Part shown: one piece after another, positions 14,663 to 56,474 of the stretch
How positions within the stretch are numbered: the first letter of the stretch is position 1
Layout: every line of letters starts with the position of its first letter
Origin: Trypanosoma brucei
Taxonomy: Eukaryota
Assembly: GCA_000002445.1 (NCBI GenBank)
Contig: CH464491.1
Coordinates: forward strand, 2,464,001 to 2,528,000
Direction of reading: 5' to 3'
Length of the DNA stretch: 64,000 nt
Notes under the pieces: model-generated
Databases searched by the model: none
What the model was told of the DNA's origin: nothing
What the model saw: the letters and a program-made list of their open reading frames with translations, nothing else
Position numbers and translations under genes: made by a program

Positions 14663-14705
14663 TTTTTTTTTTGCTTCTTCTTTGTTTTGCTACTTTATGC
14701 AATAG
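14663..14705 (+). promoter_or_regulatory. polypyrimidine tract plus AG, a candidate trans-splice acceptor for the 14882 gene
   Basis: A T10 run and the pyrimidine-rich ttgcttcttctttgttttgctactttatgc are followed by the first AG at 14704-14705. Confidence 0.45.
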
Positions 14706-14881
14706 TAGTAATAAGGAAGGGGGTGCTAAAGTTGAAAAGTTTCTTAATCGTGATTCAACAACCAAGCGGAAGCAGAAACACCGCTCAGAGTTGCGAACAA
14801 ACGTGTGCATTCCTAGTGACGAAAGAAAACAAAAGGTTTACATTGGAGAGGCAGCATTGCATATACTTAGAGCAAGAACTC

Positions 14882-17800
14882 ATGCTAGAGTTTAGGCCCC
14901 AGCATACACCGGATTCAGCGGCTCACAAAATCAACCAGGTAGCATGTGCAACTCCAGACTCGGTGCCTACGAGCGTCTCCTGGCGCAAGGAAGAGGAGAC
15001 ATCCGGAGAGGTGACTAGGGCAACAATGATTTCATCAGATGCGCGAGAGGTGTCGCACATTGCGCGCATGGCGTCAGAACGGGGGCGAGTCGACATTTCT
15101 CAGGCACGCAATAGTTCACCTAGAGGAACAGCTACCGCGGTTAACGCCGTTGAGGTTGAACTTCAGCGGCGGCTTGATGTAGTGAAGGCGGCTGTTGAAA
15201 AGGCTGACAAGGTGGTCGACGTTGCACGCGGAAGATGTGCAGAGGTGATATCCCGAGAGGAACGTCGACGCGCCATGGTTAAGCTGGAAATTTCGAAGTT
15301 GATTCTTTTCGTTGGACGGAACTACAACATACTTGACGAGTTAGAGCTTACATTGGGTAGTGTGCTCGAAGTATCCGAACTTCCTGTTTACCACAGCGAC
15401 AAATATTCTGAAGTTCCCTTTTCCGCGCGGGAGATACCTCCATATTTGTCTCTGGAAGATCTGGAGCGGGCTAACAGAGAAATGATGGCCCGGTTGATGA
15501 AAGAGCGAACCAAGCGGGCAAACGATCCGCCTCATGCCTCGTTGCTGGGGAAACGGGTCAACTCTAATTTGGATGAAGTGATGTGGCTCATAGACTCCCT
15601 TGAGGAACCTCCCTGTTCTGAAGAGCAGTTCGGGGAAACTGTCGGGACAGGTGAAGAAGAAGAATGTGAGAAGTCACCTGTGGCTGTGTCACAGCGAAGG
15701 AGTCAGGCTATAACTTCTACCAGTGCTGCGAGAGAGACTAGGACGAGCGGAGTACGCGGGGCATCCTCGTCAGGGAACGCAACTCTTTGCTCGTCACGCG
15801 TGGAGATGGACAGCAGCATTGTTAACTTCTCCTTAAGTAGTGAGTCGTTTCCCATTGCCACGGGGGAAACCAGGGATCTGAAGCTGCTGAAATTCATGTA
15901 TGATGCTGCTAAGGCTACTGTGGAGGAAGCTGCGGCGGCGGAAGCGTTTGGTGCGTTCAGTGGCGCGCAACTCGGAACGACCTTTCGAAGCACGTCCAAT
16001 AGGTTGCAGCCCGCGAGAGACTCTTTCTGCACGCAACAATTATCCGGTGCGCTGTCGGGCACGATTGGTCTTAACTCACCCAGTAAGATTGACAGCGGGT
16101 GCAAAGAGCTGTCGTTTACTTCTAGTCGGCCGCCATCGGGGATGTTTGAAGACCGGGAATCATTTAGTTTGGAGCAGCATATTTCAGATAGGGCGCTACC
16201 GACGGCGGCAGCACCGTGGCGAGGTTCACATAATCCAAGTACAGTCGTTATAGATCATCTTGATCCCGAAGTGTTCACCGTTCTGGGGGAGCTGTACAAA
16301 GCCTATGACTACAGGCAATTTTTCCGCGATATCCAAAACAAGCACCTAATGAGGGGTAAGACGGATGACGAGTACGAGGCGGAAATAGAAAATCTGCTTA
16401 CACAGCACATGGATGACAAGCGCAAACGAGCTGCTAACAGTGTTAAGGACGAGTTGATCATCAAAAAATGGGGAGGGGTGGCCAGCGAAGCATCTCGGGC
16501 ACCGACACCAAGACAAGAGGTTGAGTTTGTTTTACCAGCTCGTCGGGAGGAAGAGGAGGAAACAGAGGAAGCAGAGAAAAAGTCCTGGTTGCAGTCAGTG
16601 GTAGAAAGTATGTCGCCACTTTCCTCCGCGCCGACCCCAGTGGAGGAAGTGCCGTCCCCATCTTTTCTCTCACAAATCCCTGTCGATGCGTTGGTGTTTG
16701 CGAGAGACATGAACAACGGTGTTGTTTTCTTCATTAGAGGTCGAAACGAGGAAGCTTCGAACGATGAAAAGACTCTGGAAGGTAAACGAAAGGGGAAGAA
16801 AGGTAAGGCGAAAAAGGATGGTGATCAAGAGGATCGCAATGCAGCAGGAGGTCCTCCAGTATATGACAGTTACACCCTGTATGTGACCAATCAGTCAGAT
16901 ACGAATCTGACGGTGGTGGTGGACATTGAGAAGACTAAGGCCCGCAAATTGAGAATGAGTGCACACGTGAATTATGCAATCCCGCAGGAGTGCATCGTTA
17001 TAGCTCCACCACCCGGGAGTCTCAAATCACTACTTACATTCTGTCCCAAAAAAAGGCAACAAATTGATTTTGGTGAAATACTTAGCTTTCGTGAGGGGAC
17101 GGCCAGGGGTGAGGTAGGCGGTACAGTAGGCGAGGAAGAAAAGCTTCAACTAAAAGCTTCATCTGGTGTATCCGCTCGAACTAAGGTTTCGGGTACTACC
17201 AAGGACTCCACAGTGAAAGAAGCTGGCGAGCCGGTAGCCGCCACCGAAGTTAGTAGCGAACGAGAGACCGCCGGCACCAGAGCTGAAGTCAGCGATGCGG
17301 CACCCACTACTCAGCCTTCAGTGACTGCCACCACAAAGGAGGAGGTGTCCCATAAGGAAGCGGACGCAGGTGAAGTGGTGAAGATCCTCGATGAGGAAGC
17401 TGACAGCTATGTAGCAGTTGGAGGTGGTAGGCGTACTAAAAAGAGGGCCGGTTGTGCGGCGATCTTATCAAAGTACCCTTCTACACGGGGTGCGGAGTGG
17501 GAGGCCAATGCACCTGAGAGCACCACCGCTGAGAGCGCTGGCTTTACTGAAGAAGGAGAGGCTTCGATACCCCCTGGTCCACCGCGTGGAGAAAGGGAAC
17601 CGAAGGGTGAAGAGGCCTCATCGCGTTCAAGAGCACGAGCGCGCGAAGCGAGTGGAGCAGCGAATAGGGCCTCTTTCCAGCAAGCAGTTGGTCGTACCCG
17701 TGAAACAGTTGAAAAGGTTTGGCCCACAGGCACTGCGCCTGTTGATCACTGGGGTGTGCCCCTCTCTAACGAAGAGGATGAGGCATTTGAAAAGAATTGC

Positions 17801-20590
17801 GTTGCGTTGACCATACTGCAGGGTGGCATGTGGTCAGAAGTGGACCCTTCGCATGGGATGGTTGGTGAAGAACCATTTGGTGGGTCGGGTGAAATTCCGA
17901 AGGAAGAAGCTGACAAACTCCTTGATACAAGTAATGCGGATGAAGAGGAACTGGTTAGCAAAATTCTTAACGCTCCCACCTCTGGTGACATGCACACACT
18001 GTCTGGTGGGCAACTGACTGAAATGGATAGCGCCGAGGGGATGGCAGCGGCCTTTCTCGGGCGCATCGCAGCCGAAGAGCATTTGGATGCGAGTAATTTT
18101 GAGCGCGGAGGAGTTTCGCCCCGTCGGTTGCCCTCTGACAGTTCGGGGGTGCCACAAACGACTTCGCACGCTGAGCAAGTCGGCGACGAGGCTGCTGTTT
18201 CTTTAGCTAGAAAAGGCAAACGTGTGAAGAATGCTACTTCCTCTGCTGATGGCGAACATACACCCAGATCGCCTACCAGGGCGCGAAGAGGAAGTGGAGA
18301 GAGAGAAGGTGTATCCCGTTCTAGCGCTGTAGGGTCACAAAGACTCAGTCCTGGTGCTAAAGGGGGAAAGGGTCGAAAGGAAGGGGTTGAAGGCAGCGCA
18401 GCTCAAGGTGGTGAAAGTTCTATTTCAACCAATGAGACCTCTGAAGCCAGGACGGGCGTTGGTTCCGGGAGAAGAGCTGATGGCAAGGTGGGAGCTGATG
18501 CCGGAAGAAGAGCTGATGGCAAGGCAAGGGCTGATGCCGGAAGAGGAGCTGATGGCAAGGCAAGGGCTGATGCCGGAAGAGGAGCTGATGGCAAGGCAAG
18601 AGCTGATGCCGGAGGAAGAGCTGATGCCAAGGCGGGTGCTGGTGCCGGAGGAAGAGCTGATGCCAAGGCGGGTGCTGGTGCCAGGGCGAGGACAAGTTCT
18701 GATGCTCGCGCAAGCGCTGATACCGGGGAAACCTCTGATACTGAGGCAAGCATTGGTGCCGGTACCTCTTCAAGAGAGGTTGAACACGGTGGAGTGAGGA
18801 AGAGCAAACTTCGGAGCTTGTCGAAGACGTCAGTCTACGGGAGTGCGAAAATGAAGAGGTACAGCCTAAGGACTCCACCCACCAGCGGCCGTTTCCAAGC
18901 AAGTTCAGGCACAGTGACAGATGGTGAACAACACGGTGATACCACTGCAACCGAAAGTTGTAGAGGAAGCGACAGCACTTCCCACACCCCACGCGGCCAA
19001 CCGTCCCATAGGGGGGTCCTCAGCGCCACGAGAAGCTCCTTTATTGCATCAGTCGATGATAAGTCATCGTGGAGGTCGTCAGTAACGCCTCGTGCCGATA
19101 GTAAGAGCGTTTCAGCATCAGCGCTGAAACATCTATTGGACCAGGTTAGGGTGAGTGAAAAGAAGGACGCAGAGGCACCAACGGGCTTCATTATGGAAAA
19201 GGGGGTTACAGAATATAGTTCACTGTTGCGCAAAGGTGTGCAGGGCGTACAACGCCACCTCTTTCCGGATCGTCAAAAAGTATGCACCAAGTCAAACACC
19301 CACGGCCGTGTGGCTGTGTACGTTCCCGACGACATGGTTGCAGGCACGCTAGTATCGACCGCTGCCAGGGACAATTACTATGGGAAGATGTCGAGACTGT
19401 CCGGCGCATTAACCTCCAATGGTCAAGCCGAAAACATTGTAGAATCACTTCGTGATGATCTTCACGACGTGGCGAAGACGTGCTTCGTCCGCAACAGGAG
19501 GGGGAACCAGAGAGCAGTATTCGGACAGCAAGGAGGTACTGGAGTCTCTGGAGGTAGCAAACGTGCCTCCAGTTATGCGGATAAGGCAGGTATCACATCC
19601 CTCCCCTTACTTTGTGCTCCTGATGTTGTGGAAGAGGTAAGAGACCTCAAAGTTGCGGGGGAAGAGGCACGGGACCTCTTCATTCGAGACCCCACTCGCT
19701 ACGACTGTGTCATCGACGACATCGTTCAACGTGCCATTCAGAGGGTGAACGGGGACGATACCAACTTCACGGCTCTAACAGGAGGCAGAAACGAATTCAG
19801 CATCAAAGGAACTGGGTTAGGGGGGGCACGTGAGACATTTGTATCCTCCAACTCCACCACTGGCGGTTCCCTCTCGGGTCACGGTGTCGGTGCAGTGCGA
19901 GGTTTCAGAGATAACAGAGGGAGGGATGTTGCGCACTCAAACGGCTTGGGTGCTTCTCCCCGTGGGGGCCCGAAACGTGGCGGCGGGTTGGAAGCTCAGT
20001 TGGCAGGAAGTTTCCAGCGGCTCCTCGACGAGCAAAACCGAGCGAAAAGGATTATCGCGTACGTGCTTATGGAAATGAGGCGCATGTGGAGGTTGAGGAG
20101 GCTGGAGGGTGACATCGCCCTCCGCGCGGCTGTGGATCGCTTTGTGTTCCGCTCACTTTCCTTCACCTGGCGCATCGAGCGCCGCCGAGTCCTCAACCTC
20201 AACAAACTAATCAATCTGCTGGACCGTCGCACAGGTCGCGTGAAGGGCTGGGTGCCGTTCTATACCAAAGACAATGTTTTAGTTGACCATTACCTTTGGG
20301 AACCCGTGCCACCGGAGCTCTCACACCAGATGAAGGTTGTCCATCATGCCATGTGTTTAGCACGGCGGCAGGAACTGCTTCCTCTGCGAACGGTGCGACA
20401 TCTTTCTACGTCGGATCAAAGCTCGCACCATCTGATGTTCGGTTACTCAAGGAGGTTGCTAGACCCCTTTAGAAACACAGCAGTGCAACTGAGGAATGAG
20501 AGGCGTGCACGTCATGCTGCATACTTCCAAAGGTCTTTGAGGCGCTTTTCTCCACAAACTGAATATCTGGTGGGGACGCCAAAGAACTAA
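14882..20590 (+). CDS. large hypothetical protein (about 1902 aa from the first ATG) with an internal 12-aa tandem repeat
   Basis: Uninterrupted 5.9-kb ORF. The track start at 14687 is TTG inside the pyrimidine tract. The first in-frame ATG is 14882, and 15026 (MISSDAREV) is an alternative. The sequence is low-complexity, Ser/Glu/Ala-rich, with a basic C-terminal region (RRMWRLRRLEGDIALRAAVDRF). I recognise no catalytic domain. Confidence 0.75.
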   Translation: MLEFRPQHTPDSAAHKINQVACATPDSVPTSVSWRKEEETSGEVTRATMISSDAREVSHIARMASERGRVDISQARNSSPRGTATAVNAVEVELQRRLDVVKAAVEKADKVVDVARGRCAEVISREERRRAMVKLEISKLILFVGRNYNILDELELTLGSVLEVSELPVYHSDKYSEVPFSAREIPPYLSLEDLERANREMMARLMKERTKRANDPPHASLLGKRVNSNLDEVMWLIDSLEEPPCSEEQFGETVGTGEEEECEKSPVAVSQRRSQAITSTSAARETRTSGVRGASSSGNATLCSSRVEMDSSIVNFSLSSESFPIATGETRDLKLLKFMYDAAKATVEEAAAAEAFGAFSGAQLGTTFRSTSNRLQPARDSFCTQQLSGALSGTIGLNSPSKIDSGCKELSFTSSRPPSGMFEDRESFSLEQHISDRALPTAAAPWRGSHNPSTVVIDHLDPEVFTVLGELYKAYDYRQFFRDIQNKHLMRGKTDDEYEAEIENLLTQHMDDKRKRAANSVKDELIIKKWGGVASEASRAPTPRQEVEFVLPARREEEEETEEAEKKSWLQSVVESMSPLSSAPTPVEEVPSPSFLSQIPVDALVFARDMNNGVVFFIRGRNEEASNDEKTLEGKRKGKKGKAKKDGDQEDRNAAGGPPVYDSYTLYVTNQSDTNLTVVVDIEKTKARKLRMSAHVNYAIPQECIVIAPPPGSLKSLLTFCPKKRQQIDFGEILSFREGTARGEVGGTVGEEEKLQLKASSGVSARTKVSGTTKDSTVKEAGEPVAATEVSSERETAGTRAEVSDAAPTTQPSVTATTKEEVSHKEADAGEVVKILDEEADSYVAVGGGRRTKKRAGCAAILSKYPSTRGAEWEANAPESTTAESAGFTEEGEASIPPGPPRGEREPKGEEASSRSRARAREASGAANRASFQQAVGRTRETVEKVWPTGTAPVDHWGVPLSNEEDEAFEKNCVALTILQGGMWSEVDPSHGMVGEEPFGGSGEIPKEEADKLLDTSNADEEELVSKILNAPTSGDMHTLSGGQLTEMDSAEGMAAAFLGRIAAEEHLDASNFERGGVSPRRLPSDSSGVPQTTSHAEQVGDEAAVSLARKGKRVKNATSSADGEHTPRSPTRARRGSGEREGVSRSSAVGSQRLSPGAKGGKGRKEGVEGSAAQGGESSISTNETSEARTGVGSGRRADGKVGADAGRRADGKARADAGRGADGKARADAGRGADGKARADAGGRADAKAGAGAGGRADAKAGAGARARTSSDARASADTGETSDTEASIGAGTSSREVEHGGVRKSKLRSLSKTSVYGSAKMKRYSLRTPPTSGRFQASSGTVTDGEQHGDTTATESCRGSDSTSHTPRGQPSHRGVLSATRSSFIASVDDKSSWRSSVTPRADSKSVSASALKHLLDQVRVSEKKDAEAPTGFIMEKGVTEYSSLLRKGVQGVQRHLFPDRQKVCTKSNTHGRVAVYVPDDMVAGTLVSTAARDNYYGKMSRLSGALTSNGQAENIVESLRDDLHDVAKTCFVRNRRGNQRAVFGQQGGTGVSGGSKRASSYADKAGITSLPLLCAPDVVEEVRDLKVAGEEARDLFIRDPTRYDCVIDDIVQRAIQRVNGDDTNFTALTGGRNEFSIKGTGLGGARETFVSSNSTTGGSLSGHGVGAVRGFRDNRGRDVAHSNGLGASPRGGPKRGGGLEAQLAGSFQRLLDEQNRAKRIIAYVLMEMRRMWRLRRLEGDIALRAAVDRFVFRSLSFTWRIERRRVLNLNKLINLLDRRTGRVKGWVPFYTKDNVLVDHYLWEPVPPELSHQMKVVHHAMCLARRQELLPLRTVRHLSTSDQSSHHLMFGYSRRLLDPFRNTAVQLRNERRARHAAYFQRSLRRFSPQTEYLVGTPKN
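18467..18682 (+). repeat. coding tandem repeat, 6 x 36 bp (GRRADGKARADA / GGRADAKAGAGA units)
   Basis: Units read at 18467, 18503, 18539, 18575, 18611 and 18647. Units 2-4 are near-identical. Units 5 and 6 are identical to each other and form a second subtype. Confidence 0.95.
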
Positions 20591-24930: not shown

Positions 24931-26175
24931 ATGGGATGTCAACAAAGTGGAGTGCGAATGTCTCCTCAGGACCTTAGTGATCGCACTCCCAGTGGTCAAC
25001 ACGGGTTTACAGGGGATGCCAGCAACACGGCACTTCCCACTGTTCCAACAGACTCATGGTATGGTAAAAACTTTAGTGAAACATCACGTATGGCATTTAC
25101 CGAGTTTCACTTAAAGCAGCGGGGAAACATCGTTTTCGCCGGGACCCCCGTTCCTGTTGGCGCCTCGGAATTGGGTGAGTTCCCTGGCAACTCCCCACCG
25201 CTGCTCACAAGGGCAGTTATTGGCAAGGACAATGTGTACGGCATGGCGTACCTCTATAGCACTCCACTTTCCATTGAGCATCAGTGGAGACTGCGTGTAT
25301 GCCACTACCAAATAGCGTGTTCACCCTCTGGACAAACGCTAGGGGAAGTGCCGGGGGCGCTTTCTACACTTCCTGAGACCCCAACGACAGATGAGCAGAA
25401 AATCAGACTGTGGAACTTCGCTAAACAAGTCTACGACCGGCCGCTTTGCGACACTTTTGTTGGGATCAAAGTGTATGTTGACGGAGAGCTTGTGCCCGAC
25501 CGTTATCCGAGAGCCAAAAGTCTCCCAAACTGCACAGCTACACTCGAATCTAGTGAAGTGTTTAATAACTGGACCTGTGTTCCTTTTGTACTTGTTGGTT
25601 ACGTGAACAGTCCGATGATAAGTACTGTTACGATGTACAGGCACCTGTCCCTTAGCTTCGTTGAGTACTTGTTGGGCAAAACCATCACGGGTGGAGAAAC
25701 CGACAGAACAAAAGATGAAGAGGTGGCGGAATGTAAAGACGAGAATACCGTTGGGGATGGACGTAGTGTGGACGCGCCCGATAAGCCGAAGGAGGAGGTC
25801 ACCCAGTCTTTCAATGTTTCTGTAGAGGTTGTGTACGGTTGTGAGGCGGAGATGAATTTCTGCACAGCCCACATTGCGAAGGGGAACATAGAACTTGTTA
25901 TGGGAGAGCACTCAGACGCAGCTTTACGAAAATATAAGGCTTCACTTGAGGAGTTTCTTAGGAAAAGCGGCAACGAGCGTCATCAGGTAGTTGCGGTGGA
26001 TCCTTTGACACTCAAAGGGCGGAACTCGGCATTATGGACTTGTTTGTTTTGCGGGTCTCCCCTGCAGTTCACGTGTACGATTTGCGGCGCCGAGCTGTGT
26101 GGAATGTCTTCGTGTGTGTGGAAGCCCTTCACGGGGTATCCGCTTGGCTGCTCGTCTCATAAGGCGCAGGCGTGA
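24931..26175 (+). CDS. hypothetical protein with a dual-acylation-type N-terminus and a C-terminal Cys cluster, 414 aa
   Basis: ATG ORF. MGCQQSG has Gly2, Cys3 and Ser6. The C-terminus has a zinc-finger-like spacing, CLFCGSPLQFTCTICGAELCGMSSCVWKP...GCSSH. Confidence 0.7.
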   Translation: MGCQQSGVRMSPQDLSDRTPSGQHGFTGDASNTALPTVPTDSWYGKNFSETSRMAFTEFHLKQRGNIVFAGTPVPVGASELGEFPGNSPPLLTRAVIGKDNVYGMAYLYSTPLSIEHQWRLRVCHYQIACSPSGQTLGEVPGALSTLPETPTTDEQKIRLWNFAKQVYDRPLCDTFVGIKVYVDGELVPDRYPRAKSLPNCTATLESSEVFNNWTCVPFVLVGYVNSPMISTVTMYRHLSLSFVEYLLGKTITGGETDRTKDEEVAECKDENTVGDGRSVDAPDKPKEEVTQSFNVSVEVVYGCEAEMNFCTAHIAKGNIELVMGEHSDAALRKYKASLEEFLRKSGNERHQVVAVDPLTLKGRNSALWTCLFCGSPLQFTCTICGAELCGMSSCVWKPFTGYPLGCSSHKAQA

Positions 26176-27009: not shown

Positions 27010-29586
27010 ATGCTATCCAAGTTATTCCGGTATGACACGAAACTTCAGGGGAAGCAGGAACTCAGTACCGCTGATCACAGGTCGTTACTTGAGCTTAGTA
27101 TGACAGACAACATTACATCCGTAGAGATTCCGCAGTACAGGGTGCGGGGGACGTTTGTTGAGTATGTGATTGAGTGCACAAAACGAAACATGACGTGGCA
27201 GGTGTTTCGGCGTTACCAGCAATTTAAGGCACTTGACCAGAGTCTGAAACAACTATGCTCACGCGGATCCTCAAGGCACTGTGACTACGGGGTCATTCCT
27301 GTCCTCTGCGGTAGCCACTGGACGGAAGTAACTAACCAGTCAATCGACCTCGTAGAAAAACGGCGGAGGCACTTGGAAATTTACCTCCGCCAGTTGCTCG
27401 TCCCGGGGAATGTATTTTATGTTGCTAAAACCGTGATTTACGATTTTCTTCACGATGGCGCGGTTCCTGCGCAGCACCAAAGGAGGGCCATACGACCGCT
27501 AATTGGCTTTGCAACGCCAGACTCGTTGGCAGACCTCCACTTGGAAAACAGGAACGGCGAAGGGAGTGCGAGCCGGTTAGGGGCGGCCTCAACTCTCAAC
27601 GATAAATCGATTTCTATGCTTGGGCCATCTGCTGTTGGTGAAAGTGATCGAGTGGATGATGGTGTCGGGGACGAAGAAGAGGAGCCCTGCAAATCACCTC
27701 CAGGAGAGACCGTAGAGAGCGGTGAGGAATGTGAAGATTTACCATCAGCTGACAACAGTGAAGCTGAGGACGTGCGTGTGCCGCCACCAGGCTCCTTGTG
27801 CAGGCAATGTAACGCTGAGTTTTCTTCTGTGCTGTATCCGCATCGTTGTTTCTTCTGTAGGCAACAGTTTTGTCGCGACTGTTTGCACCCAGTCGAACTT
27901 GAAGAAGGAGAGGTCGCTAGATCATGTGTTCAATGTTATGAAAACTTTGCTCGAAAGACCTGTAAACCCCAATATCCCCCAACTCCCATGGCTTCAACAC
28001 CAATACTTCAGTGCGCACCTGCTGGTGGTGCGTTGGACCCGTTGAACTTACTCGGTAGTACGTCCCACGTGCGAACAGATGTAACACTTTCTGACTTTAA
28101 GTTAGTTACAACTGTGGGACGTGGCACGTTTGGCAAAGTGATGAAAGTTATCTTTCGTGAAGATGGCAAGGTTTATGCTATGAAAGTGCTCAACAAGTGT
28201 GTTATTCACAAGCGGCGAATGATCGAGTACATCAGGGAGGAGAAGAATATCATGTCCTCTTTACCCTCGCATCCGTACATTGTAACATGTCACTTCGCAT
28301 TTCAGACTGACTACCATCTTTTCTTCGTACTGGACTACCTCCCTGGTGGAGACATGCACTCGCGTGTTTACCCTAAACTCAAACTAACTGAATCGGATGT
28401 CCGTTTGTATATTGCTGAACTTGTACTCGCACTCCAACATCTGCACCGTCACGACATTGCCCATCGTGACGTCAAGCTCGAAAACATTGTCTTGGGAGAA
28501 GACGGACATCTTAAACTGACAGATTTTGGGCTGGCACGCATGAATTTCTCACGGCAACGCCGTCGCAGTTTTGTGGGGAGTCCGGAGTACCTTCCGCCAG
28601 AAACGATTCAGGGGAAGTACCAAACGAAGGCTGTGGATTGGTGGAGTGCGGGGGTCATGCTGTACGAAATGCTGAGTGGGAAGACGCCGTTTTACTCGGC
28701 GTACAATTGTGAAATCTACAACAATGTGTTGAAGGCGGAGTTGGACCTCACAGCCCCGTGTTTCACGCCAGAGGCCGCCTCACTCATTGAACAACTGCTT
28801 CAAAGCCATCCAAAAGCAAGGTTGCAAGACGCAGGGGCAATAAAGGCTCATCCTTACTTTGCATCAATCGATTGGGCTGCTCTCGAAGGTAAAAAAATAT
28901 CTGCCCCCATACAGCTTGATCTTATGGGAAATGATATGAAATACATCAAATGGAAGTTCACGGCGGAGTGGGCTGTTATATACAAACCTCCTGGAGTGAC
29001 ACGTGCTACAATTGACCTTTTGATTAATCGCTTTAGTAACTTTGCTCATGTGAGCGAGGGGACGCCGCCCACGCCGCATCTGCCGATAGGGCAGCAGCAG
29101 GAAGAGGTATCTGACGGAGTGACAAACCCACCGGATATAACCGGCGTTTGGAATGTTGTCAAGGTAGAGATGCAAACGGAGGATGGAAAGATCACGCATC
29201 CTTGGGGAAGTGCAGTGTGTGGAGTGCTAGCGTACTTCCCAGAGGGTCAGTTCAGCATGCAGCTTACATCATATATGCGTCCACATTTGCGGCAACAGTT
29301 CGTGGATCGTGCCGTGAGAGAGGATCTGGTAGAAATGTGCAACTCGTACGCGGGCAGTTTCGGAAAGTATCAGATCAAGCCAGGGAGCAATATCATTACT
29401 CACAGGCTTCACGGCTGCCTCTGTCCGAATCTTACAGGAAGTACACAAAAGTATTTTTTTGAGGTTCGTGAGAGGAAAGAAAATGGGGCTAAAGTGTTGA
29501 AACTTTTTACCGCGTGTAACGCGCTCCCAGGTGAAGACATCTCCGCACAAACCGTCCTCACATGGGAACGGACGGGTTCCTGCTAA
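27010..29586 (+). CDS. AGC-family Ser/Thr protein kinase with N-terminal PX and FYVE-like domains and a C-terminal lipocalin-like domain (about 858 aa)
   Basis: The track start at 26905 is GTG; the first ATG is 27010. PX domain: YRVRGTFVEYVIEC...WQVFRRYQQFKALDQSL...RRRHLEIYLRQLL. FYVE-like Cys pattern: CRQCNAEF...HRCFFCRQQFCRDC...CVQCYENF. Kinase motifs are intact: GRGTFGKV, YAMKVL, HRDVKLENIVL, DFGLAR, GSPEYLPPE. C-terminal domain: GVWNVVKVEMQTEDGKITHPWGSAVCGVLAYFPEGQFSMQL...YAGSFGKYQIKPGSNIITHRLHGCLCPNLTGSTQKYFFEV. Confidence 0.85.
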   Translation: MLSKLFRYDTKLQGKQELSTADHRSLLELSMTDNITSVEIPQYRVRGTFVEYVIECTKRNMTWQVFRRYQQFKALDQSLKQLCSRGSSRHCDYGVIPVLCGSHWTEVTNQSIDLVEKRRRHLEIYLRQLLVPGNVFYVAKTVIYDFLHDGAVPAQHQRRAIRPLIGFATPDSLADLHLENRNGEGSASRLGAASTLNDKSISMLGPSAVGESDRVDDGVGDEEEEPCKSPPGETVESGEECEDLPSADNSEAEDVRVPPPGSLCRQCNAEFSSVLYPHRCFFCRQQFCRDCLHPVELEEGEVARSCVQCYENFARKTCKPQYPPTPMASTPILQCAPAGGALDPLNLLGSTSHVRTDVTLSDFKLVTTVGRGTFGKVMKVIFREDGKVYAMKVLNKCVIHKRRMIEYIREEKNIMSSLPSHPYIVTCHFAFQTDYHLFFVLDYLPGGDMHSRVYPKLKLTESDVRLYIAELVLALQHLHRHDIAHRDVKLENIVLGEDGHLKLTDFGLARMNFSRQRRRSFVGSPEYLPPETIQGKYQTKAVDWWSAGVMLYEMLSGKTPFYSAYNCEIYNNVLKAELDLTAPCFTPEAASLIEQLLQSHPKARLQDAGAIKAHPYFASIDWAALEGKKISAPIQLDLMGNDMKYIKWKFTAEWAVIYKPPGVTRATIDLLINRFSNFAHVSEGTPPTPHLPIGQQQEEVSDGVTNPPDITGVWNVVKVEMQTEDGKITHPWGSAVCGVLAYFPEGQFSMQLTSYMRPHLRQQFVDRAVREDLVEMCNSYAGSFGKYQIKPGSNIITHRLHGCLCPNLTGSTQKYFFEVRERKENGAKVLKLFTACNALPGEDISAQTVLTWERTGSC

Positions 29587-30015: not shown

Positions 30016-32022
30016 ATGCTCTCCAGTGCGCTGAGGTTTGTAAAACCCGTCAAGCGGATGACGGCAACTGCTGGAAGGATCGTTTTTTCTAGCATCACAA
30101 ACACCCAGAAACGCGTAAGCACATCATCACAAGCCACAACCAAGTCGACTTTGGTTCTCTCTGATGAGGACCGCAAGCTAATGCCTCAGGGGATCGCACA
30201 ACCTACCATAGCGGAGCCCGGTGGAGTTAATGCACAGCAAGAACCAAGGAACGCTTCAGATACCATGGATGCAAGTACCGCTGTAGGGATCGGGAACCTT
30301 CGCAGAGGAAATAGCGGTGCATCCACACATGCTGGTGGTTATGCACCGTGGGAAATCCGCGCGCTCCTTGTTCCACTGTTGCCTGTAGGCAACACCTTTG
30401 TTCACATAAGTAGCGTCATCCACCTTCTTCCTTCGGCAGCACGGAAGGAAATGGAGCGTGAGGGGACACCCCTTCAGTACATAGAGAAATATCTATCGGA
30501 CAGTGTTATTGTCAGGGGGAGCCTGCTCTCGCGCATCACAACAGGTGCAAGCAGTTGTGACAAGGGGAATGGATGTAACAAAGCTTCTGTTGCGCCGCCA
30601 CCGCCTCCCATTTCCGTTGGTCGTGCAAGCGGTCCAGCTTCACAGCAGCAGCAGCAGCAGCAGGGCTTGCCTCCGCGAGGTGGTGCGGGTGCGAAAACAA
30701 CTCTTGAAGTGTTGGATATGTTAATTGAATTCATTCCAACCTTCTTTGTACAACACCAGATGGTAGCCGACCAGTTGCCGTCTGAAATTACAAAGCAGTT
30801 TGCTGACAGTAGTTTTCTTTATTATCTCAAGCGGTTCCGTCACTACATTGACATACGTGCCAGCCACGGGAACACTGAAATCCGGCTCCGCCCCGATTTT
30901 TCACACCCTAAGCGGGGTGCAGCTGATTCTCTCTACACCACTGGACTGAGCAGCAATGACATATTGAGCCAACTCGCCCGCGGTCGAAGGCCACCACGAC
31001 ACTCAGAGGCCAACTTAATTCAATTCATAGTGCCACGAATGCCCATCGAATACACTCCAATAGCTACCGTCCTGCAGGATGTGTCAGATATCGTCTCCCG
31101 CCATCCCTCCTTTGATCCTCGTCTCGGGGTAACGGGTCTCTTCGAGAAATACCCAGAATATTTTCAGATCACTGACTCCAAACTGCGAGTTCGGCCGTTT
31201 CGCAGTGCGCCAAATTCATTGGATGATTTGAACGCTACTACCTCACCCCTACCTGCTATATACGAGAAGGTTAAGCAACTGGTGGATGCACAGGCCGAGG
31301 GAAAGGACTACAGTAAAGAGTCAGAGAAGGCAGCTGCCATTGTGCCGACTGGTAAACTATACGCGCTACTTACTAACGTAGAAAAAACGGAGGTAAAAGC
31401 AAAATGTCGCTCCTTCCCGCGTTTCTTGCGGCTGCACGGCGAGGAGATTGTGGTATCTGTGGACAGCATGAAGGTGTACAAGTTCCGGCCAACGTATGAA
31501 CCCTGCGCAGAAACTCTTATGGATCAGCGGCTTATGATGAGTTCACTCTCCCCTAGTGACCCCGTACTAAAGATACCAGCCACAATGGAGGAAAGCAGTT
31601 CTGCTGACTGGGCCGTACGGGAGCTGTACGACGCGTTGCCGCTTATGCAGTGTGCTGAACTTAGTGAAGTGATGTCGCTCGTTCCGCCCTCCATAAGGGA
31701 TGCACTGCCAAAGGAGCTGGAGAAGCTTGTGGAACATTTGGCATTGTATCCCGACTACTTCGCCACCTGGCCCTACCCCGACGATCCCACTGTGATGGTG
31801 GTTCAGCGAGCAAAGCTGGAGCCGTTGCACTTAAAGAACGAAGACATTGTGAGGATGGTTCTTTCGTTTATTCCCCAGGGCGGTATTGAAGCGCACAAGC
31901 TGATGCGTCGCGTCCCGCTTCCTCTTCAAAGACACTTCTACCGCCACGGGTTGAAGAGGGTGCTTGGCGAACTTAAGGACTACTTTTTGATTGTTGGTGA
32001 TAAGGTTATGCGCGTAGGTTGA
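30016..32022 (+). CDS. hypothetical protein, probable mitochondrial presequence, poly-Q tract, six copies of a Y-x-x-YF...VRxRP-type motif, 668 aa
   Basis: ATG ORF. The N-terminus MLSSALRFVKPVKRMTATAGRIVF is basic and amphipathic. Q7 run at about 30643-30663. The repeated motif is described in findings. Confidence 0.7.
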   Translation: MLSSALRFVKPVKRMTATAGRIVFSSITNTQKRVSTSSQATTKSTLVLSDEDRKLMPQGIAQPTIAEPGGVNAQQEPRNASDTMDASTAVGIGNLRRGNSGASTHAGGYAPWEIRALLVPLLPVGNTFVHISSVIHLLPSAARKEMEREGTPLQYIEKYLSDSVIVRGSLLSRITTGASSCDKGNGCNKASVAPPPPPISVGRASGPASQQQQQQQGLPPRGGAGAKTTLEVLDMLIEFIPTFFVQHQMVADQLPSEITKQFADSSFLYYLKRFRHYIDIRASHGNTEIRLRPDFSHPKRGAADSLYTTGLSSNDILSQLARGRRPPRHSEANLIQFIVPRMPIEYTPIATVLQDVSDIVSRHPSFDPRLGVTGLFEKYPEYFQITDSKLRVRPFRSAPNSLDDLNATTSPLPAIYEKVKQLVDAQAEGKDYSKESEKAAAIVPTGKLYALLTNVEKTEVKAKCRSFPRFLRLHGEEIVVSVDSMKVYKFRPTYEPCAETLMDQRLMMSSLSPSDPVLKIPATMEESSSADWAVRELYDALPLMQCAELSEVMSLVPPSIRDALPKELEKLVEHLALYPDYFATWPYPDDPTVMVVQRAKLEPLHLKNEDIVRMVLSFIPQGGIEAHKLMRRVPLPLQRHFYRHGLKRVLGELKDYFLIVGDKVMRVG

Positions 32023-32729: not shown

Positions 32730-35021
32730 ATGCTACAAAAGGAGGTATTGGGCTCAAATGCGAATTCCTCCACGGTTCTTGTAAAGGACACAGAGGCTGG
32801 AGGGGAACTCCGCGTTGTTAAGCGAATCAACGTCACCTCGTGGGCGGAATCCGATGTGGACAAAACACTCGAGACGTACAACGCTATTGCTTCGGCAAAT
32901 ATACCGAATATGGTTAAGTTGTACGTGGCCATGCGGCAGAGCTCCTCCATAAGTGTCGTGAGCTCCTACTGCCTTGGCGAGGAACTGCAGGAGTACCTTG
33001 ACGAGAAAATCTCCTGTCCTTTAGATGAGGTTACTGCCTTGAGGTGGATGCGAAATATAGCGCGGGTCGTGCAACAGGTCCACAACCTTCCCCTCAACAA
33101 CAGGGTGGCATGTTTTCATGGACCTTTAATTGATCGTATTTTTGTTGTGGACGACGGTAAAGAGGTATGCGTAGGTTTGCCACTACCACGCGTCTTGTAC
33201 TTCAAATGGCTTGAGGAGCGTGAGACGTATGGTGTTAAATTGCACCACGAATACCCACCAGAAGTTCTGCGCGGCCGGTATTATTACACCCAAGCAAGCG
33301 ATATTTGGCAGTTAGGACTCGTAGGAATGAAGTTGTTAGCAGCTAACGCCTCATTTGATCGTCGATCAGCCGCCATTCGGACACTTATTGCGTCCATGAT
33401 GAACCCCATAATGAGGAAGCGACCTAACATTGAAGAGGTTAACAGAAAATTGGGGGAAATCACACGGGAACGCAGTATCTCATGCTTGTCGTCTGCGGAT
33501 GTGAATACTCCGACATCGTATGAACGATTTCTCACTCCGCGCTCCGCAGTTATGGAGGAGCCGATCGGAATGACATCGTTGGATGAGTATGACACCTTCA
33601 CCACCGACCTTAGTAAGACGAACTTCGATGAGGTGACCCAAAGCACGCATAAACATGCCTGGCGTAACAGGCTTCAACCAAGTTGGTACAACCAAGCGAT
33701 GAAGCAATTTGAGGAGCTGCAACGGATGAACTCAACCCCGTTAACGTCAAGGTCACGCCCGGCATCACCCACGCCAGCAACTGGTGGAGCTGTATCACCG
33801 CGAGCGAGGAGAGATGCAAAGGCAACAAACGCACGGGACAGGTCGGGTGGAGCTCGGCCATCTCCCCGTCGGCGCGCGTCCTCTTCAACGCTTACCGGAC
33901 CACAAAAAAATCGAACTCTTGAGCGCGTGCCGAGCTCGGCGCGCAGGGACCTTGCGATGCCCAGAATGTTGAATAACATTCCGTCTCAGCGGTCGCGTAA
34001 TGCCCATAGGTTGGAATTGGAAGAAAAAAAGCGAAGGCAACAGGCTCTGGAGCGAGAGGCCCATGCCATGCACCGAGTTCATGAAAATAGGATGCGGGAA
34101 ATCCGTAAGAACCAAGATGAGTCCATGAAACACGATATTCGGAAGTACATCAAGCAGTGGAGAGAGCAGAGCACCGCCGCAAAAGACGATAGCACTTCGT
34201 ATAGCGAACACAATGGTGTGGCAATATTTGTTCCAAAAAATCCACCACCACCGGGGCGGTCACCAAATGTAGACACGAAAGCAAAGCAACAACCACTTAA
34301 TAGTGAAGGGGATACACACAGGAGGGTTTTCTCGGATGAACTCACGCATGCAGCGGCAGGGCCGGTGGTGCATGGAAGCACACCAAGACCCTACAGTGCG
34401 ACACGACACCCGCGGACACCACCATCAGCTACACCGAAGCGCTCAGCATCTATATACCGCATCCGTGGCATTAGCCCCAAGGTGCCGCACTCACGTGCCA
34501 ATCCCTCCGACAGATACAAGGTCACAGAAAGTGCACCCACCACCACTGTGTCGTGTGCAAATCCTTCCAGTAGCAAAAATAGTGGCACGACGGCCTACCA
34601 AACTAGTGAAACCTCGTCCGGTACATATCCGTCAGGAACGAACAGGGCGGGGCAATCAAATTCACGGACAATCTCCGTTCTGGGAGAAGACGCGACTAAA
34701 CCAAGCTGCACAGCTGGTGTGCCAGGCACTAATCGTCTCGCTGCGGAAAGTCTCAGGTGTTCTGCGGGTAGATTGCGGGAAGCACTGGAGAAACTATTAC
34801 CAACCCGCGAGTTGTTCGTTGAGACAATGGAAGTTGTAGATGCCTTCGTGGTGCGCTCAGAGATTGAGCGGTGTAACCCTCGTTTCAACACAGTGTTCAT
34901 GCACACACTTAGGAAGTTAATGAATGATGATGAACTTCTTCTTTCCGCCGTTCCGATGTGTGCGCAGTTAGTTTCGTTGTTGAGTCTGTTGCAAGGAGGC
35001 GAACAGCCTGAGGGGACGTAA
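32730..35021 (+). CDS. protein-kinase-like protein, predicted pseudokinase, with a long disordered basic/Ser-rich C-terminus, 763 aa
   Basis: ATG ORF. Kinase-fold landmarks are present (LRVVKRI lysine, YPPEVL, DIWQLGLVGMKLL). The Gly loop is degenerate (LGSNANSSTV). The HRD region reads FHGPLIDRIFV and the DFG position reads VGLPLP. Confidence 0.75.
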   Translation: MLQKEVLGSNANSSTVLVKDTEAGGELRVVKRINVTSWAESDVDKTLETYNAIASANIPNMVKLYVAMRQSSSISVVSSYCLGEELQEYLDEKISCPLDEVTALRWMRNIARVVQQVHNLPLNNRVACFHGPLIDRIFVVDDGKEVCVGLPLPRVLYFKWLEERETYGVKLHHEYPPEVLRGRYYYTQASDIWQLGLVGMKLLAANASFDRRSAAIRTLIASMMNPIMRKRPNIEEVNRKLGEITRERSISCLSSADVNTPTSYERFLTPRSAVMEEPIGMTSLDEYDTFTTDLSKTNFDEVTQSTHKHAWRNRLQPSWYNQAMKQFEELQRMNSTPLTSRSRPASPTPATGGAVSPRARRDAKATNARDRSGGARPSPRRRASSSTLTGPQKNRTLERVPSSARRDLAMPRMLNNIPSQRSRNAHRLELEEKKRRQQALEREAHAMHRVHENRMREIRKNQDESMKHDIRKYIKQWREQSTAAKDDSTSYSEHNGVAIFVPKNPPPPGRSPNVDTKAKQQPLNSEGDTHRRVFSDELTHAAAGPVVHGSTPRPYSATRHPRTPPSATPKRSASIYRIRGISPKVPHSRANPSDRYKVTESAPTTTVSCANPSSSKNSGTTAYQTSETSSGTYPSGTNRAGQSNSRTISVLGEDATKPSCTAGVPGTNRLAAESLRCSAGRLREALEKLLPTRELFVETMEVVDAFVVRSEIERCNPRFNTVFMHTLRKLMNDDELLLSAVPMCAQLVSLLSLLQGGEQPEGT

Positions 35022-56293: not shown

Positions 56294-56313
56294 CCCCCCC
56301 CCCAAAAAAAAAA
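56294..56313. repeat. C10A10 homopolymer pair
   Basis: Direct count: C at 56294-56303 and A at 56304-56313. Confidence 0.95.
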
Positions 56314-56459: not shown

Positions 56460-56474
56460 GGGGGGGGGGGGGGG
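56460..56474. repeat. G15 homopolymer at the skew switch point of the strand-switch region
   Basis: Direct count. Confidence 0.95.

What the first reader, a model, noticed from the sequence alone, without database searches (positions are those of the whole stretch)
27010..29586. Unusual four-module kinase: PX + FYVE-like + active AGC kinase + bacterial-type lipocalin-like domain
The catalytic motifs are all intact (GRGTFGKV, HRDVKLENIVL, DFGLAR, SPEYLPPE). Two phosphoinositide-binding-type modules precede the kinase, giving an SGK3-like PX logic plus a FYVE-like zinc finger that lacks the canonical RHHCR basic patch. The last ~170 aa (GVWNVVKVEMQTEDGKITHPWGSAVCGVLAYFPEGQFSMQL...YAGSFGKYQIKPGSNIITHRLHGCLCPNLTGSTQKYFFEV) follow the pattern of the mostly bacterial lipocalin-like domain family: GtW-l-v, dG-p-G, G-l-Y-dG, Y-G-Y-v, tH-v, PN-G-Q-r-f-e. 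I do not know of a small-molecule-binding barrel fused to an endosomal AGC kinase in model eukaryotes, and the fusion suggests ligand-regulated signalling.
Basis: partly seen in the sequence, partly recalled or inferred. Interest (0 to 1): 0.55.

Follow-up and report, generated by a model that had tools for sequence, protein, structure and literature searches.

The report
Known trypanosome ZFK kinase with barrel
This gene is the already-studied Trypanosoma brucei kinase ZFK, which restrains parasite differentiation; its four-part build, including a bacterial-type lipocalin-like barrel at the end, is real and already published, but nobody knows what the barrel does.

Summary

It is not new. The protein is 100% identical to UniProt Q965D1, T. 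brucei ZFK (Tb927.11.9270), published in 2001 as a "PX and FYVE-related" kinase that slows slender-to-stumpy differentiation. A 2023 in-silico survey lists this same accession as "PX-Pkinase-Lipocalin_5".

What I add is incremental:
- The fusion also occurs in diplonemids, so it is older than Kinetoplastea.
- Diplonemid orthologues keep a canonical FYVE motif (RKHHCR), so the kinetoplastid finger is a degenerate FYVE.
- The hydrophobic motif (FSNF) has no phospho-acceptor.
- The barrel is conserved about as well as the finger and the AGC tail. All 39 orthologues lack a Tyr that is 97% conserved in stand-alone bacterial relatives.

Ligand-regulated signalling remains an untested inference. Interest is low to moderate.

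The parts
27010..29586 (+). Complete ZFK coding sequence (858 aa plus stop), Trypanosoma brucei Tb927.11.9270
   Evidence: The ORF is continuous. It is 100% identical over 100% of its length to UniProt Q965D1, 'Zinc finger protein kinase', T. brucei brucei. The gene ID comes from PMC3957582.
27097..27474 (+). PX domain (residues ~30-155; Pfam match 58-148 = 27181-27453), with R67-R68-Y69, P97-V-L-C and the invariant R118
   Evidence: Pfam PX scores 34.7 bits against a gathering score of 21.6. AlphaFold2 gives three strands plus helices at pLDDT 85-96. Mean identity to orthologues is 59%.
27523..27789 (+). Acidic, low-complexity disordered linker (residues 172-260)
   Evidence: pLDDT is below 50. 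Mean identity to orthologues is 14%.
27796..27948 (+). FYVE-related zinc finger (residues 263-313). It has four CxxC pairs, but the basic patch has degenerated to YPHRCF and there is no WxxD.
   Evidence: Pfam FYVE scores 20.1 and 25.6 bits, below the gathering score of 27.8. The eight Cys are conserved, and diplonemid orthologues have the canonical W..D, R(K/R)HHCR and RVC motifs. pLDDT is 86-94 with two hairpins and a C-terminal helix.
27970..28068 (+). Disordered linker (residues 321-353)
   Evidence: pLDDT is below 50. Mean identity to orthologues is 11%.
28099..28860 (+). AGC-type Ser/Thr kinase domain (residues 364-617). The catalytic residues K392, E411, D487, N492 and D505 are invariant. 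The activation-loop residue is Ser520, in RRRS520FVGSPEY.
   Evidence: Pfam Pkinase scores 213 bits. The invariant residues come from the 39-sequence alignment. The nearest PDB sequences are RSK2 N-terminal domain, Akt2 and SGK1, at 6.6e-65 to 1.8e-64. Ser520 is kept in 38 of 39 orthologues.
28861..29058 (+). AGC C-terminal tail (residues 618-683). It contains the NDxKYF..(E/K)FT.EWA tether and the hydrophobic motif F675-S-N-F678-A679 (window 29032-29049), which has no phospho-acceptor.
   Evidence: The alignment of 18 orthologues shows the motifs. F675 is kept in 38 of 39 and F678 in 39 of 39. Residue 679 is P, A, V, R, H or K among the commonest residues, and no Ser or Thr appears among them. 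pLDDT is 86-96.
29059..29142 (+). Short variable linker between the hydrophobic motif and the barrel (residues 684-711)
   Evidence: Mean identity is 12%. pLDDT is below 50 for residues 690-703. The linker length varies from about 20 to more than 100 aa among orthologues. It contains no pyrimidine tract of 10 nt or more.
29143..29571 (+). Lipocalin_5 (PF13924) calycin-type 8-stranded beta-barrel (residues 712-854), with a GxW start at G712/W714 and conserved E720, P731-W732-G733, Y742, Q751, R757, H798, P806-N807, W852 and R854

Best explanation
This is the Trypanosoma brucei gene for ZFK (zinc finger kinase, Tb927.11.9270), a non-essential AGC kinase that acts as a 'slender retainer' in bloodstream-form differentiation.

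Shown here:
- One ORF encodes four independently folded modules joined by disordered linkers: PX, a FYVE-derived zinc finger, an AGC kinase with its tail, and a Lipocalin_5 beta-barrel.
- This order is conserved in every kinetoplastid and diplonemid orthologue found.

Inferred mechanism:
- The PX domain, and ancestrally the FYVE finger too, recruits the kinase to PI3P-bearing endo-lysosomal membranes.
- The kinase is switched on by phosphorylation of the activation-loop Ser520.
- Its hydrophobic motif (FSNF-A) docks constitutively, because it has no phospho-acceptor.
- The barrel is tethered about 30 residues after that motif. It most likely binds a small amphipathic or hydrophobic molecule, or a lipid head group, and so tunes the activity, localisation or substrate choice of the kinase in cis.

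I put the identity and architecture at above 0.95. I put the ligand-sensing role of the barrel at about 0.35.
For: Identity:
- The protein is 100% identical to Q965D1.
- The ZFK name, gene ID and knock-out phenotype come from PMC3894213, PMC3957582 and PMC4403954.

Architecture:
- Pfam finds the four domains.
- All 43 orthologues are colinear.
- The full-length AlphaFold2 model has four confident modules and three disordered linkers.
- Modules are 38-61% identical to orthologues; linkers are 11-14%.

Endo-lysosomal targeting:
- The PX domain has RRY and the invariant R118.
- L. mexicana ZFK localises to the lysosome or endomembrane (PMC7902614 supplement).

AGC regulation:
- The tail and the FxxF motif are conserved.
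- PMC2716717 reports phospho-Ser520 on AGC kinase Tb11.01.1030 in bloodstream forms. That matches the activation-loop Ser520 here. The mapping of that old ID to ZFK is from my memory only.

Barrel:
- It keeps most family-wide polar residues: E720, Y742, Q751, R757, H798, N807 and R854. That argues for a retained binding site.
Against: - No ligand, cavity or inter-domain contact could be examined. The tools return no coordinates or PAE, and pTM 0.66 is uninformative.
- No member of PF13924 has a solved structure detectable by sequence. None has a curated NCBIfam name.
- Bacterial gene neighbourhoods show no recurrent partner.
- All 39 ZFK barrels lack the Tyr at position 783 that is 97% conserved in stand-alone relatives. 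Only 19 of 39 keep the Arg at position 815 that is 99% conserved there. The ancestral site may therefore be altered or disabled.
- Leishmaniinae tolerate insertions of about 40-150 aa inside the barrel.
- The knock-out phenotype was seen in vitro but not in vivo (PMC4403954).
Confidence: 0.85

Rival explanations
1. The barrel is a protein-protein interaction or substrate-docking module, not a small-molecule sensor. It would recruit substrates or a regulator to the membrane-bound kinase.
For: - The ZFK clade has its own invariant residues that the stand-alone family lacks: W732 in 39 of 39, and R847/T848.
- It has lost the family's Tyr783 and partly lost Arg815.
Against: - Most of the family-wide conserved polar residues are retained. 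By strand periodicity they lie on the same face as the GxW Trp and so probably point into the barrel. That placement is an inference without coordinates. Their retention is unexpected if only an outer surface mattered.
- No partner is known.
Confidence: 0.25
2. The barrel is a third membrane- or lipid-binding module. It would provide coincidence detection with PX, compensating for the loss of canonical PI3P binding by the degenerate FYVE finger in kinetoplastids.
For: - The FYVE basic patch is lost in kinetoplastids but intact in diplonemids.
- Several unnamed metagenomic orthologues (P0035-37, P0039, P0042) lack the finger altogether yet keep the barrel.
- L. mexicana ZFK tagged at the C-terminus, next to the barrel, shifts from 'lysosome' to 'endomembrane'.
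Against: - Diplonemids already have PX, a canonical FYVE and the barrel together, so the barrel predates the FYVE decay.
- Nothing in the sequence shows an amphipathic or basic membrane-insertion loop.
Confidence: 0.2
3. The barrel is a remnant of an enzyme, either a pseudo-enzyme or an active small-molecule-modifying domain. It would have been inherited from a bacterial-type Lipocalin_5 protein and be retained mainly for structural reasons.
For: - Stand-alone relatives have a strongly conserved polar constellation (E, H, R, R, Y, Q) that looks more like an active site than a generic hydrophobic pocket.
- Two bacterial homologues sit directly after a type I PKS gene and an aromatic ammonia-lyase gene.
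- ZFK has lost two of the most conserved residues.
Against: - The barrel is conserved at 38% mean identity from trypanosomes to diplonemids, against 11-14% for the linkers. It is therefore under selection and is not decaying.
- Seven bacterial contexts share no common theme.
- No enzymatic activity is known for any family member.
Confidence: 0.15
4. The C-terminal barrel is a separate gene fused by an assembly or annotation artefact.
For: Nothing positive. The idea rests only on the general possibility of frameshift or mis-assembly artefacts, plus the presence of short database entries containing only the C-terminal part (P0121 at 244 aa, P0123 at 314 aa, P0124 at 291 aa).
Against: - The frame is continuous with no stop.
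- The independent GenBank/UniProt entry Q965D1 has an identical 858-aa product.
- The same order is found in 43 orthologues from independent assemblies.
- Trinity transcript ORFs from Lacrimia, Namystynia and Papus carry kinase and barrel on one mRNA.
- The short T. congolense entry P0123 shares a cluster with a full-length 877-aa protein.
- The linker has no pyrimidine tract that could act as a splice-acceptor signal.
Confidence: 0.01

Closest known systems
Trypanosoma brucei ZFK (zinc finger kinase; UniProt Q965D1; Tb927.11.9270; Vassella et al. 2001, Mol Microbiol 41:33)
   Same: It is the same protein: 100% identity over all 858 residues. [quoted passage not shown]
   Different: Nothing differs in sequence. 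No open-access paper in the library contains ZFK, lipocalin and trypanosom* together.
Kinetoplastid 'PX-Pkinase-Lipocalin_5' proteins, subfamily D of Kinetoplastea PX proteins (PMC10380299, IJMS 2023)
   Same: The architecture is the same, and accession Q965D1 is itself listed in that paper's supplementary table as subfamily D.
   Different: - That paper does not mention the FYVE-related finger of these proteins, ZFK or diplonemids.
- It states that the architecture is restricted to Kinetoplastea.
- Here it is also found in Diplonema papillatum, Lacrimia lanifica and Namystynia karyoxenos.
Mammalian SGK3/CISK (PX plus AGC kinase on PI3P endosomes)
   Same: Both have an N-terminal PX domain followed by an AGC kinase with a C-terminal tail and an FxxF hydrophobic motif. 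SGK1 is among the closest solved kinase domains at 1.8e-64. The SGK3 architecture is from established knowledge.
   Different: - ZFK adds a FYVE-derived finger and a C-terminal barrel.
- Its hydrophobic motif has no Ser/Thr acceptor: residue 679 is A in T. brucei and mostly P, A, V or R in orthologues. mTORC2-type control therefore cannot apply.
- Orthology was not tested.
Stand-alone bacterial Lipocalin_5 (PF13924) proteins of about 145 aa
   Same: - Homology is full-length. A profile of ZFK barrels finds 3895 cluster representatives at E <= 1e-3.
- The T. brucei barrel is 32% identical to the metagenomic member P0129 (unnamed JGI contig).
- Shared residues include GxW, PxG, Y742, Q751, R757, H798, PN and W852.
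- Named members come from Nitrospiraceae, Thermodesulfobacteriota, Chloroflexi, Blastocatellia and Bacteroidetes.
   Different: - These proteins have a single domain and no known function.
- ZFK barrels lack the family's Tyr783 (0 of 39 against 97%), often lack Arg815 (19 of 39 against 99%), and have an invariant Trp732.
Classical (kernel) lipocalins such as RBP4 and L-PGDS, and sensor barrels VtrC/ToxS
   Different: The similarity is weak (Foldseek E about 3e-3, TM about 0.40, 9-16% identity). There was no Pfam Lipocalin (PF00061) hit at E <= 1. This is a resemblance of fold class, not family membership.

Membership tests
TbZFK (Q965D1 / Tb927.11.9270) | Sequence identity to the published protein | tested here: met
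   100% identity and 100% coverage over 858 aa. The same accession appears in the PMC10380299 supplement.
Pfam Lipocalin_5 (PF13924), Calycin clan | Profile match above the gathering score over the whole profile | tested here: met
   156.3 bits against a cut-off of 25, covering profile positions 2-141 of 142, E 6.1e-46.
Pfam Lipocalin_5 (PF13924), Calycin clan | Eight-stranded antiparallel beta-barrel fold | tested here: met
Pfam Lipocalin_5 (PF13924), Calycin clan | N-terminal GxW motif and the family-conserved residues | tested here: met
   G712 and W714 are invariant. E720, P731, G733, G738, Y742, Q751, R757, H798, P806, N807, W852 and R854 are shared with 111 stand-alone members. The exceptions are Tyr783 (absent) and Arg815 (Y in T. 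brucei).
Pfam Lipocalin_5 (PF13924), Calycin clan | Binding of a small ligand in the barrel cavity | not testable with these tools
   No coordinates are returned, and no family member has a solved structure or a known ligand.
Classical lipocalins (Pfam PF00061) | Sequence-profile membership | tested here: not met
   There is no PF00061 hit at E <= 1. Foldseek similarity to RBP and L-PGDS is only E about 3e-3 with TM about 0.40.
FYVE zinc finger (PF01363) | Eight zinc-coordinating Cys in four CxxC pairs | tested here: met
   The pairs are C264/267, C280/283, C288/291 and C306/309. They are conserved in trypanosomes, bodonid-like orthologues and diplonemids.
FYVE zinc finger (PF01363) | PI3P-binding motifs WxxD, R(R/K)HHCR and RVC | tested here: not met
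   T. brucei has no WxxD, reads YPHRCF instead of RRHHCR, and RSC instead of RVC. The Pfam score of 20.1 or 25.6 bits is below the gathering score of 27.8.
FYVE zinc finger (PF01363) | Descent from a canonical FYVE domain | tested here: met
   At the same position, the orthologues of Diplonema (P0038), Lacrimia (P0043), P0040 and P0041 carry W..(D/G), RKHHCR and RVC. Papus P0122 scores 31.1 bits, above the gathering score.
PX domain (PF00787) | Profile match above the gathering score, plus the RRY motif and the distal Arg | tested here: met
   The score is 34.7 bits against 21.6. R67, R68 and Y69 are at least 90% conserved and R118 is invariant. The model shows a three-stranded sheet plus a helical subdomain.
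PX domain (PF00787) | PI3P binding | not testable with these tools
   The only indirect support is the lysosome/endomembrane localisation of L. mexicana ZFK. The Lys that usually follows PxxP appears to be replaced by G-S-H. The canonical motif is recalled from memory.
AGC protein kinases | Intact catalytic residues and closest similarity to AGC kinases | tested here: met
   K392, E411, D487, N492 and D505 are invariant. The best PDB matches are RSK2 N-terminal domain, Akt2, SGK1, PKC iota and S6K1. ZFK is listed as AGC in the L. mexicana kinome.
AGC protein kinases | C-terminal tail with an FxxF hydrophobic motif | tested here: met
   PPFVP (APIQL in T. brucei), NDTKYF..EFT.EWA and RF(S/D/E)NF are conserved. 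F675 is kept in 38 of 39 and F678 in 39 of 39. The tail is modelled at pLDDT 86-96. Pfam Pkinase_C itself gives no hit.
AGC protein kinases (Akt/SGK/S6K type regulation) | Phosphorylatable Ser/Thr after the second Phe of the hydrophobic motif | tested here: not met
   Residue 679 is Ala in T. brucei. The six commonest residues there among 39 orthologues are P, A, V, R, H and K, covering 37 sequences, with no Ser or Thr among them.
AGC protein kinases | Activation-loop Ser/Thr at the PDK1-type position | tested here: met
   Ser520 in RRRSFVGSPEY is kept in 38 of 39 orthologues. Phospho-Ser520 is reported for AGC kinase Tb11.01.1030 (PMC2716717). The mapping of that ID to ZFK is from memory.

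The most novel reading that the evidence does not exclude
The Lipocalin_5 barrel of ZFK could be a direct intracellular receptor for a small endo-lysosomal metabolite or lipid, possibly one linked to the quorum-sensing or nutritional signal. Occupancy of the barrel would set the activity of this 'slender retainer' kinase. Trypanosome differentiation control would then contain a one-protein, ligand-gated AGC kinase with no counterpart in model eukaryotes, inherited from the common ancestor of kinetoplastids and diplonemids.
Probability: 0.15. Interest if true: 0.7.

Novelty: already known. Interest (0 to 1): 0.25.

Why it matters
ZFK is one of the few known negative regulators of the slender-to-stumpy transition, which governs the virulence and transmission of African trypanosomes. 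Its Leishmania orthologue affects amastigote and in-host fitness.

Two literatures have not been joined. The functional work treats ZFK as a PX/FYVE kinase. The 2023 domain survey lists the barrel but does not name ZFK. No open-access paper in the library contains ZFK, lipocalin and trypanosom* together.

If the barrel binds a ligand, it would give a concrete, druggable, parasite-specific handle on differentiation signalling. As it stands, the finding re-identifies a published gene and architecture. The value here is in the incremental comparative points and in a clearly testable hypothesis.

Tried and rejected
- **Barrel-only search.** A word-index homology search with the barrel alone returned nothing. 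I replaced it with an exhaustive profile search.
- **Solved structures.** PDB sequence searches with the single barrel and with a 25-sequence profile found no solved relative.
- **NCBIfam.** It has no model for the barrel or its bacterial relatives.
- **Prokaryotic genome scan.** A single-protein scan gave only one Bacteroidetes locus.
- **Bacterial gene neighbourhoods as a clue to function.** I inspected the neighbourhoods of seven stand-alone family proteins (nine loci, mostly unnamed metagenome contigs). There was no recurrent neighbour. The PKS and ammonia-lyase adjacencies are single cases.
- **AFDB Foldseek library.** It was not available.
- **Separate-gene or artefact hypothesis.** Rejected.
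- **Classical lipocalin membership.** Rejected.
- **Canonical FYVE membership of the T. brucei finger.** Rejected. Descent from a canonical FYVE is accepted.
- **Inter-domain docking of the barrel on the kinase.** The full-length model gives pTM 0.66 but no PAE or coordinates, so the result is inconclusive.
- **The 2001 ZFK paper.** It is not held in the library. Its content is cited through its title in the PMC3894213 reference list and through the review PMC4403954.
Full report
**1. Observation**

Window 27010-29586 (+) is a single uninterrupted ORF of 858 codons plus a stop. The mechanical ORF list extends it upstream to a GTG at 26905. The ATG at 27010 gives the 858-aa product that matches the database protein exactly.

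The residue positions are GRGTFGKV 370-377, HRDVKLEN 485-492, DFGLAR 505-510 and SPEYLPPE 524-531.

The Pfam scan gives these matches:

| Domain | Residues | Bits | Gathering score |
|---|---|---|---|
| PX | 58-148 | 34.7 | 21.6 |
| FYVE | 263-313 | 20.1 (25.6 scanned alone) | 27.8 |
| Pkinase | 364-617 | 213 | 31.7 |
| Lipocalin_5 (PF13924) | 712-854 | 156.3 (E 6.1e-46) | 25 |

The Lipocalin_5 match covers profile positions 2-141 of 142.

**2. What the gene is**

The protein is 100% identical over its full length to UniProt Q965D1, 'Zinc finger protein kinase', Trypanosoma brucei brucei.

This is ZFK, Tb927.11.9270 (PMC3957582). It was first described by Vassella et al. [quoted passage not shown]

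- Reviews summarise the phenotype. [quoted passage not shown] ZFK is therefore grouped with MAPK5 and TOR4 as a 'slender retainer' (PMC4403954).
- ZFK is non-essential in the kinome RNAi screen.
- In Leishmania mexicana the orthologue LmxM.28.1670 is classed as AGC and is dispensable in promastigotes. It loses fitness in amastigote and mouse arms. It localises to the lysosome with an N-terminal tag and to endomembrane with a C-terminal tag.

**3. Is the barrel already known?**

Yes. A 2023 in-silico survey of kinetoplastid PX proteins (PMC10380299) defines a subfamily D, 'PX-Pkinase-Lipocalin_5'. It is found in almost all Kinetoplastea and is said to be absent from other eukaryotes. Q965D1 itself is listed as subfamily D in that paper's supplementary table.

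That paper never mentions ZFK, a zinc finger in these proteins, or diplonemids. Conversely, no open-access paper in the library contains ZFK, lipocalin and trypanosom* together. The architecture is therefore published, but the functional and domain literatures are not connected.

**4. Anatomy**

All 43 orthologues retrieved have the same module order: PX, finger where present, kinase, AGC tail, barrel.

A full-length AlphaFold2 model built on 39 orthologues has mean pLDDT 79.6 and pTM 0.66. It shows four confident modules:
- PX: three strands plus helices, pLDDT 85-96.
- Finger, residues 261-320: pLDDT 86-94, two hairpins plus a C-terminal helix.
- Kinase plus tail, residues 355-689: mostly above 90.
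- Barrel, residues 704-858: about 90.

Three segments are disordered: residues 172-260, 321-353 and 690-703.

Mean identity of T. brucei to its orthologues separates modules from linkers:

| Region | Mean identity |
|---|---|
| PX | 59% |
| Finger | 38% |
| Kinase | 61% |
| AGC tail | 41% |
| Barrel | 38% |
| Three linkers | 11-14% |

The barrel is thus under purifying selection comparable to the finger and the tail.

**5. The kinase**

- The catalytic residues K392, E411, D487, N492 and D505 are invariant.
- The closest solved sequences are all AGC kinases: RSK2 N-terminal domain, Akt2, SGK1, PKC iota and S6K1, at about 1e-64 to 1e-57.
- The AGC tail is conserved. It reads PPFVP (APIQL in T. 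brucei), then NDTKYF..EFT.EWA, then a hydrophobic motif RF(S/D/E)NF.
- F675 is kept in 38 of 39 orthologues and F678 in 39 of 39. The residue after the motif is Ala in T. brucei. The six commonest residues there are P, A, V, R, H and K (37 of 39 sequences), with no Ser or Thr among them.
- ZFK therefore cannot be regulated by hydrophobic-motif phosphorylation as Akt, SGK and S6K are.
- The activation-loop residue Ser520 (RRRS520FVGSPEY) is conserved in 38 of 39 orthologues.
- A bloodstream-form phosphoproteome reports phospho-Ser520 on AGC kinase Tb11.01.1030 (PMC2716717). I recall that ID as ZFK's former name, and the residue number fits. I could not verify the mapping with the tools.

**6. 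The finger**

T. brucei has four CxxC pairs (C264/267, C280/283, C288/291 and C306/309). It reads YPHRCF where FYVE domains have R(R/K)HHCR, and it has no WxxD.

Aligning orthologues shows where the finger came from. Diplonema papillatum (P0038), Lacrimia lanifica (P0043) and two unnamed relatives (P0040, P0041) carry a canonical FYVE at the same position: W..(D/G), RKHHCR and RVC. The prokinetoplastid Papus orthologue passes the Pfam FYVE threshold at 31.1 bits.

The kinetoplastid finger is therefore a degenerate descendant of a true FYVE domain. Five unnamed metagenomic orthologues (P0035-37, P0039, P0042) lack the Cys pattern altogether but keep the barrel.

**7. The barrel**

Structure:
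- A model built on 25 orthologous barrels (pLDDT 82.8, pTM 0.77) has eight strands and one helix.
- The top Foldseek PDB hits are lipocalins (RBP, L-PGDS, the VDE lipocalin domain, biogenic-amine-binding proteins). They are weak, at E about 3e-3 and TM about 0.40.
- No solved structure is related by sequence, even when searched with a profile.

Family:
- An exhaustive profile search finds 3895 cluster representatives at E <= 1e-3. Beyond the ZFK orthologues, the best are single-domain proteins of about 145 aa at about 1e-29.
- These are PF13924 members.
- Those that carry names are bacterial: Nitrospiraceae, Thermodesulfobacteriota, Chloroflexi, Blastocatellia and Bacteroidetes.
- T. brucei's barrel is 32% identical to the unnamed metagenomic member P0129.

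Comparison of 25 ZFK barrels with 111 stand-alone proteins shows:
- ZFK keeps G712, W714, L716, E720, G726, P731, G733, G738, Y742, G746, Q751, R757, Y780, F784, G785, Y787, H798, P806, N807, L830, L832, W852 and R854.
- No ZFK orthologue has the Tyr at position 783 (0 of 39), which is 97% conserved in stand-alone proteins.
- Only 19 of 39 keep the Arg at position 815, which is 99% conserved there. T. brucei has Tyr.
- Trp732 is invariant only in ZFK.

By strand periodicity, the conserved polar residues fall on the same face as the GxW tryptophan, which suggests they line the barrel interior. This is an inference. No coordinates were available to check it.

**8. Distribution**

Named orthologues cover Trypanosoma, Leishmaniinae, Phytomonas, Bodo saltans, the prokinetoplastid Papus ankaliazontas, and the diplonemids Diplonema papillatum, Lacrimia lanifica and Namystynia karyoxenos.

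The fusion therefore predates the split of Kinetoplastea and Diplonemea. That is wider than the 2023 paper's claim of restriction to Kinetoplastea. I found no euglenid example, but absence was not tested properly.

**9. Is the barrel a separate gene?**

No, for five reasons:
- The frame is continuous.
- An independently deposited sequence gives the same 858-aa product.
- 43 independent assemblies agree.
- Three orthologues are complete ORFs from transcript assemblies.
- The linker before the barrel has no pyrimidine tract of 10 nt or more, whereas the flanking intergenic regions have tracts of 15-16 nt.

Short database entries that contain only the C-terminal part are fragments. One example is T. 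congolense P0123, which shares a cluster with the full-length 877-aa protein.

**10. How it most likely works**

Shown:
- The protein is membrane-associated in Leishmania (lysosome/endomembrane).
- It has a PX domain with the RRY and distal Arg signature.
- It is an AGC kinase with intact catalytic residues.

Inferred:
- PX, and ancestrally FYVE, places the kinase on PI3P-bearing endo-lysosomal membranes.
- Ser520 phosphorylation activates the kinase.
- The non-phosphorylatable FSNF motif docks constitutively.
- The barrel, tethered just after that motif, binds a small molecule or lipid and modulates the kinase in cis.

I put the last step at about 0.35. The rivals are a protein-docking module (0.25), an extra membrane-binding module (0.20) and an enzyme-derived scaffold (0.15).

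The function of the stand-alone family gave no help. Neighbourhoods of seven stand-alone family proteins share no neighbour. One gene lies 21 bp after a type I PKS gene and another 2 bp after an aromatic ammonia-lyase gene.

**11. Verdict**

The object is an already-named, already-studied gene, and its four-module architecture is in the literature.

- The fusion extends to diplonemids.
- The finger originates from a canonical FYVE.
- The hydrophobic motif lacks a phospho-acceptor.
- The barrel carries clade-specific substitutions.

The function of the barrel remains open and is experimentally tractable. Novelty: already known. Interest: 0.25.

Noticed in passing
window 55300-58000: All ORFs of 250 aa or more are on the + strand up to 55294, apart from a 327-aa + strand ORF at 59138-60121 that overlaps the - strand gene. 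From 58009 onward the long ORFs are on the - strand. GC skew changes sign at 56-60 kb. This looks like a convergent strand-switch region between two polycistrons. ARAGORN finds no tRNA gene anywhere in the window.
   Followed up: partly
window 32730-35021 (+): A 763-aa ORF two genes downstream of ZFK matches only the N-lobe half of the Pkinase profile (50 bits, profile positions 4-116 of 263). It may be a pseudokinase or a divergent kinase.
   Followed up: no
window 14687-20590 (+), repeat at 18465-18669: A 1967-aa ORF contains a 36-bp tandem repeat of 5.7 copies at 91% match. It lies in a strongly purine-skewed stretch at 16-20 kb.
   Followed up: no
window 24931-26175 and 30016-32022 (+): The immediate neighbours of ZFK (414 aa and 668 aa) have no Pfam domain at E <= 1e-3.
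   Followed up: no
orthologues P0015, P0016, P0018-P0033 (Leishmaniinae, Phytomonas and relatives): These ZFK orthologues carry a low-complexity insertion of about 40-150 aa inside the barrel, between strands 6 and 7. The barrel evidently tolerates a large loop there.
   Followed up: partly
P0008 (Bodo saltans orthologue), residues ~735-890: There is an apparent partial duplication of the kinase C-lobe between the kinase and the AGC tail. It is probably a gene-model or assembly artefact.
   Followed up: no
L003/L004 4001-4441; L005/L006 4001-4435: Two bacterial stand-alone Lipocalin_5 genes are tightly coupled to secondary-metabolism genes. In a Nitrospiraceae genome the gene lies 21 bp downstream of a 3108-aa type I polyketide synthase. 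In a Blastocatellia genome it starts 2 bp after an aromatic ammonia-lyase (PF00221). The five other family proteins checked showed no such link.
   Followed up: partly
P0235 (ENA metagenome, 522 aa): This protein is another fusion of the same barrel family: a Kelch-repeat propeller followed by Lipocalin_5 at residues 384-519. Several proteins of about 300-360 aa carry two tandem Lipocalin_5 domains.
   Followed up: no
window 28567-28569 (Ser520 codon): PMC2716717 reports phospho-Ser520 on AGC kinase Tb11.01.1030 in bloodstream forms. Residue 520 of this ORF is the activation-loop Ser, preceded by RRR. That Tb11.01.1030 is ZFK's former ID is from memory and was not verified.
   Followed up: partly
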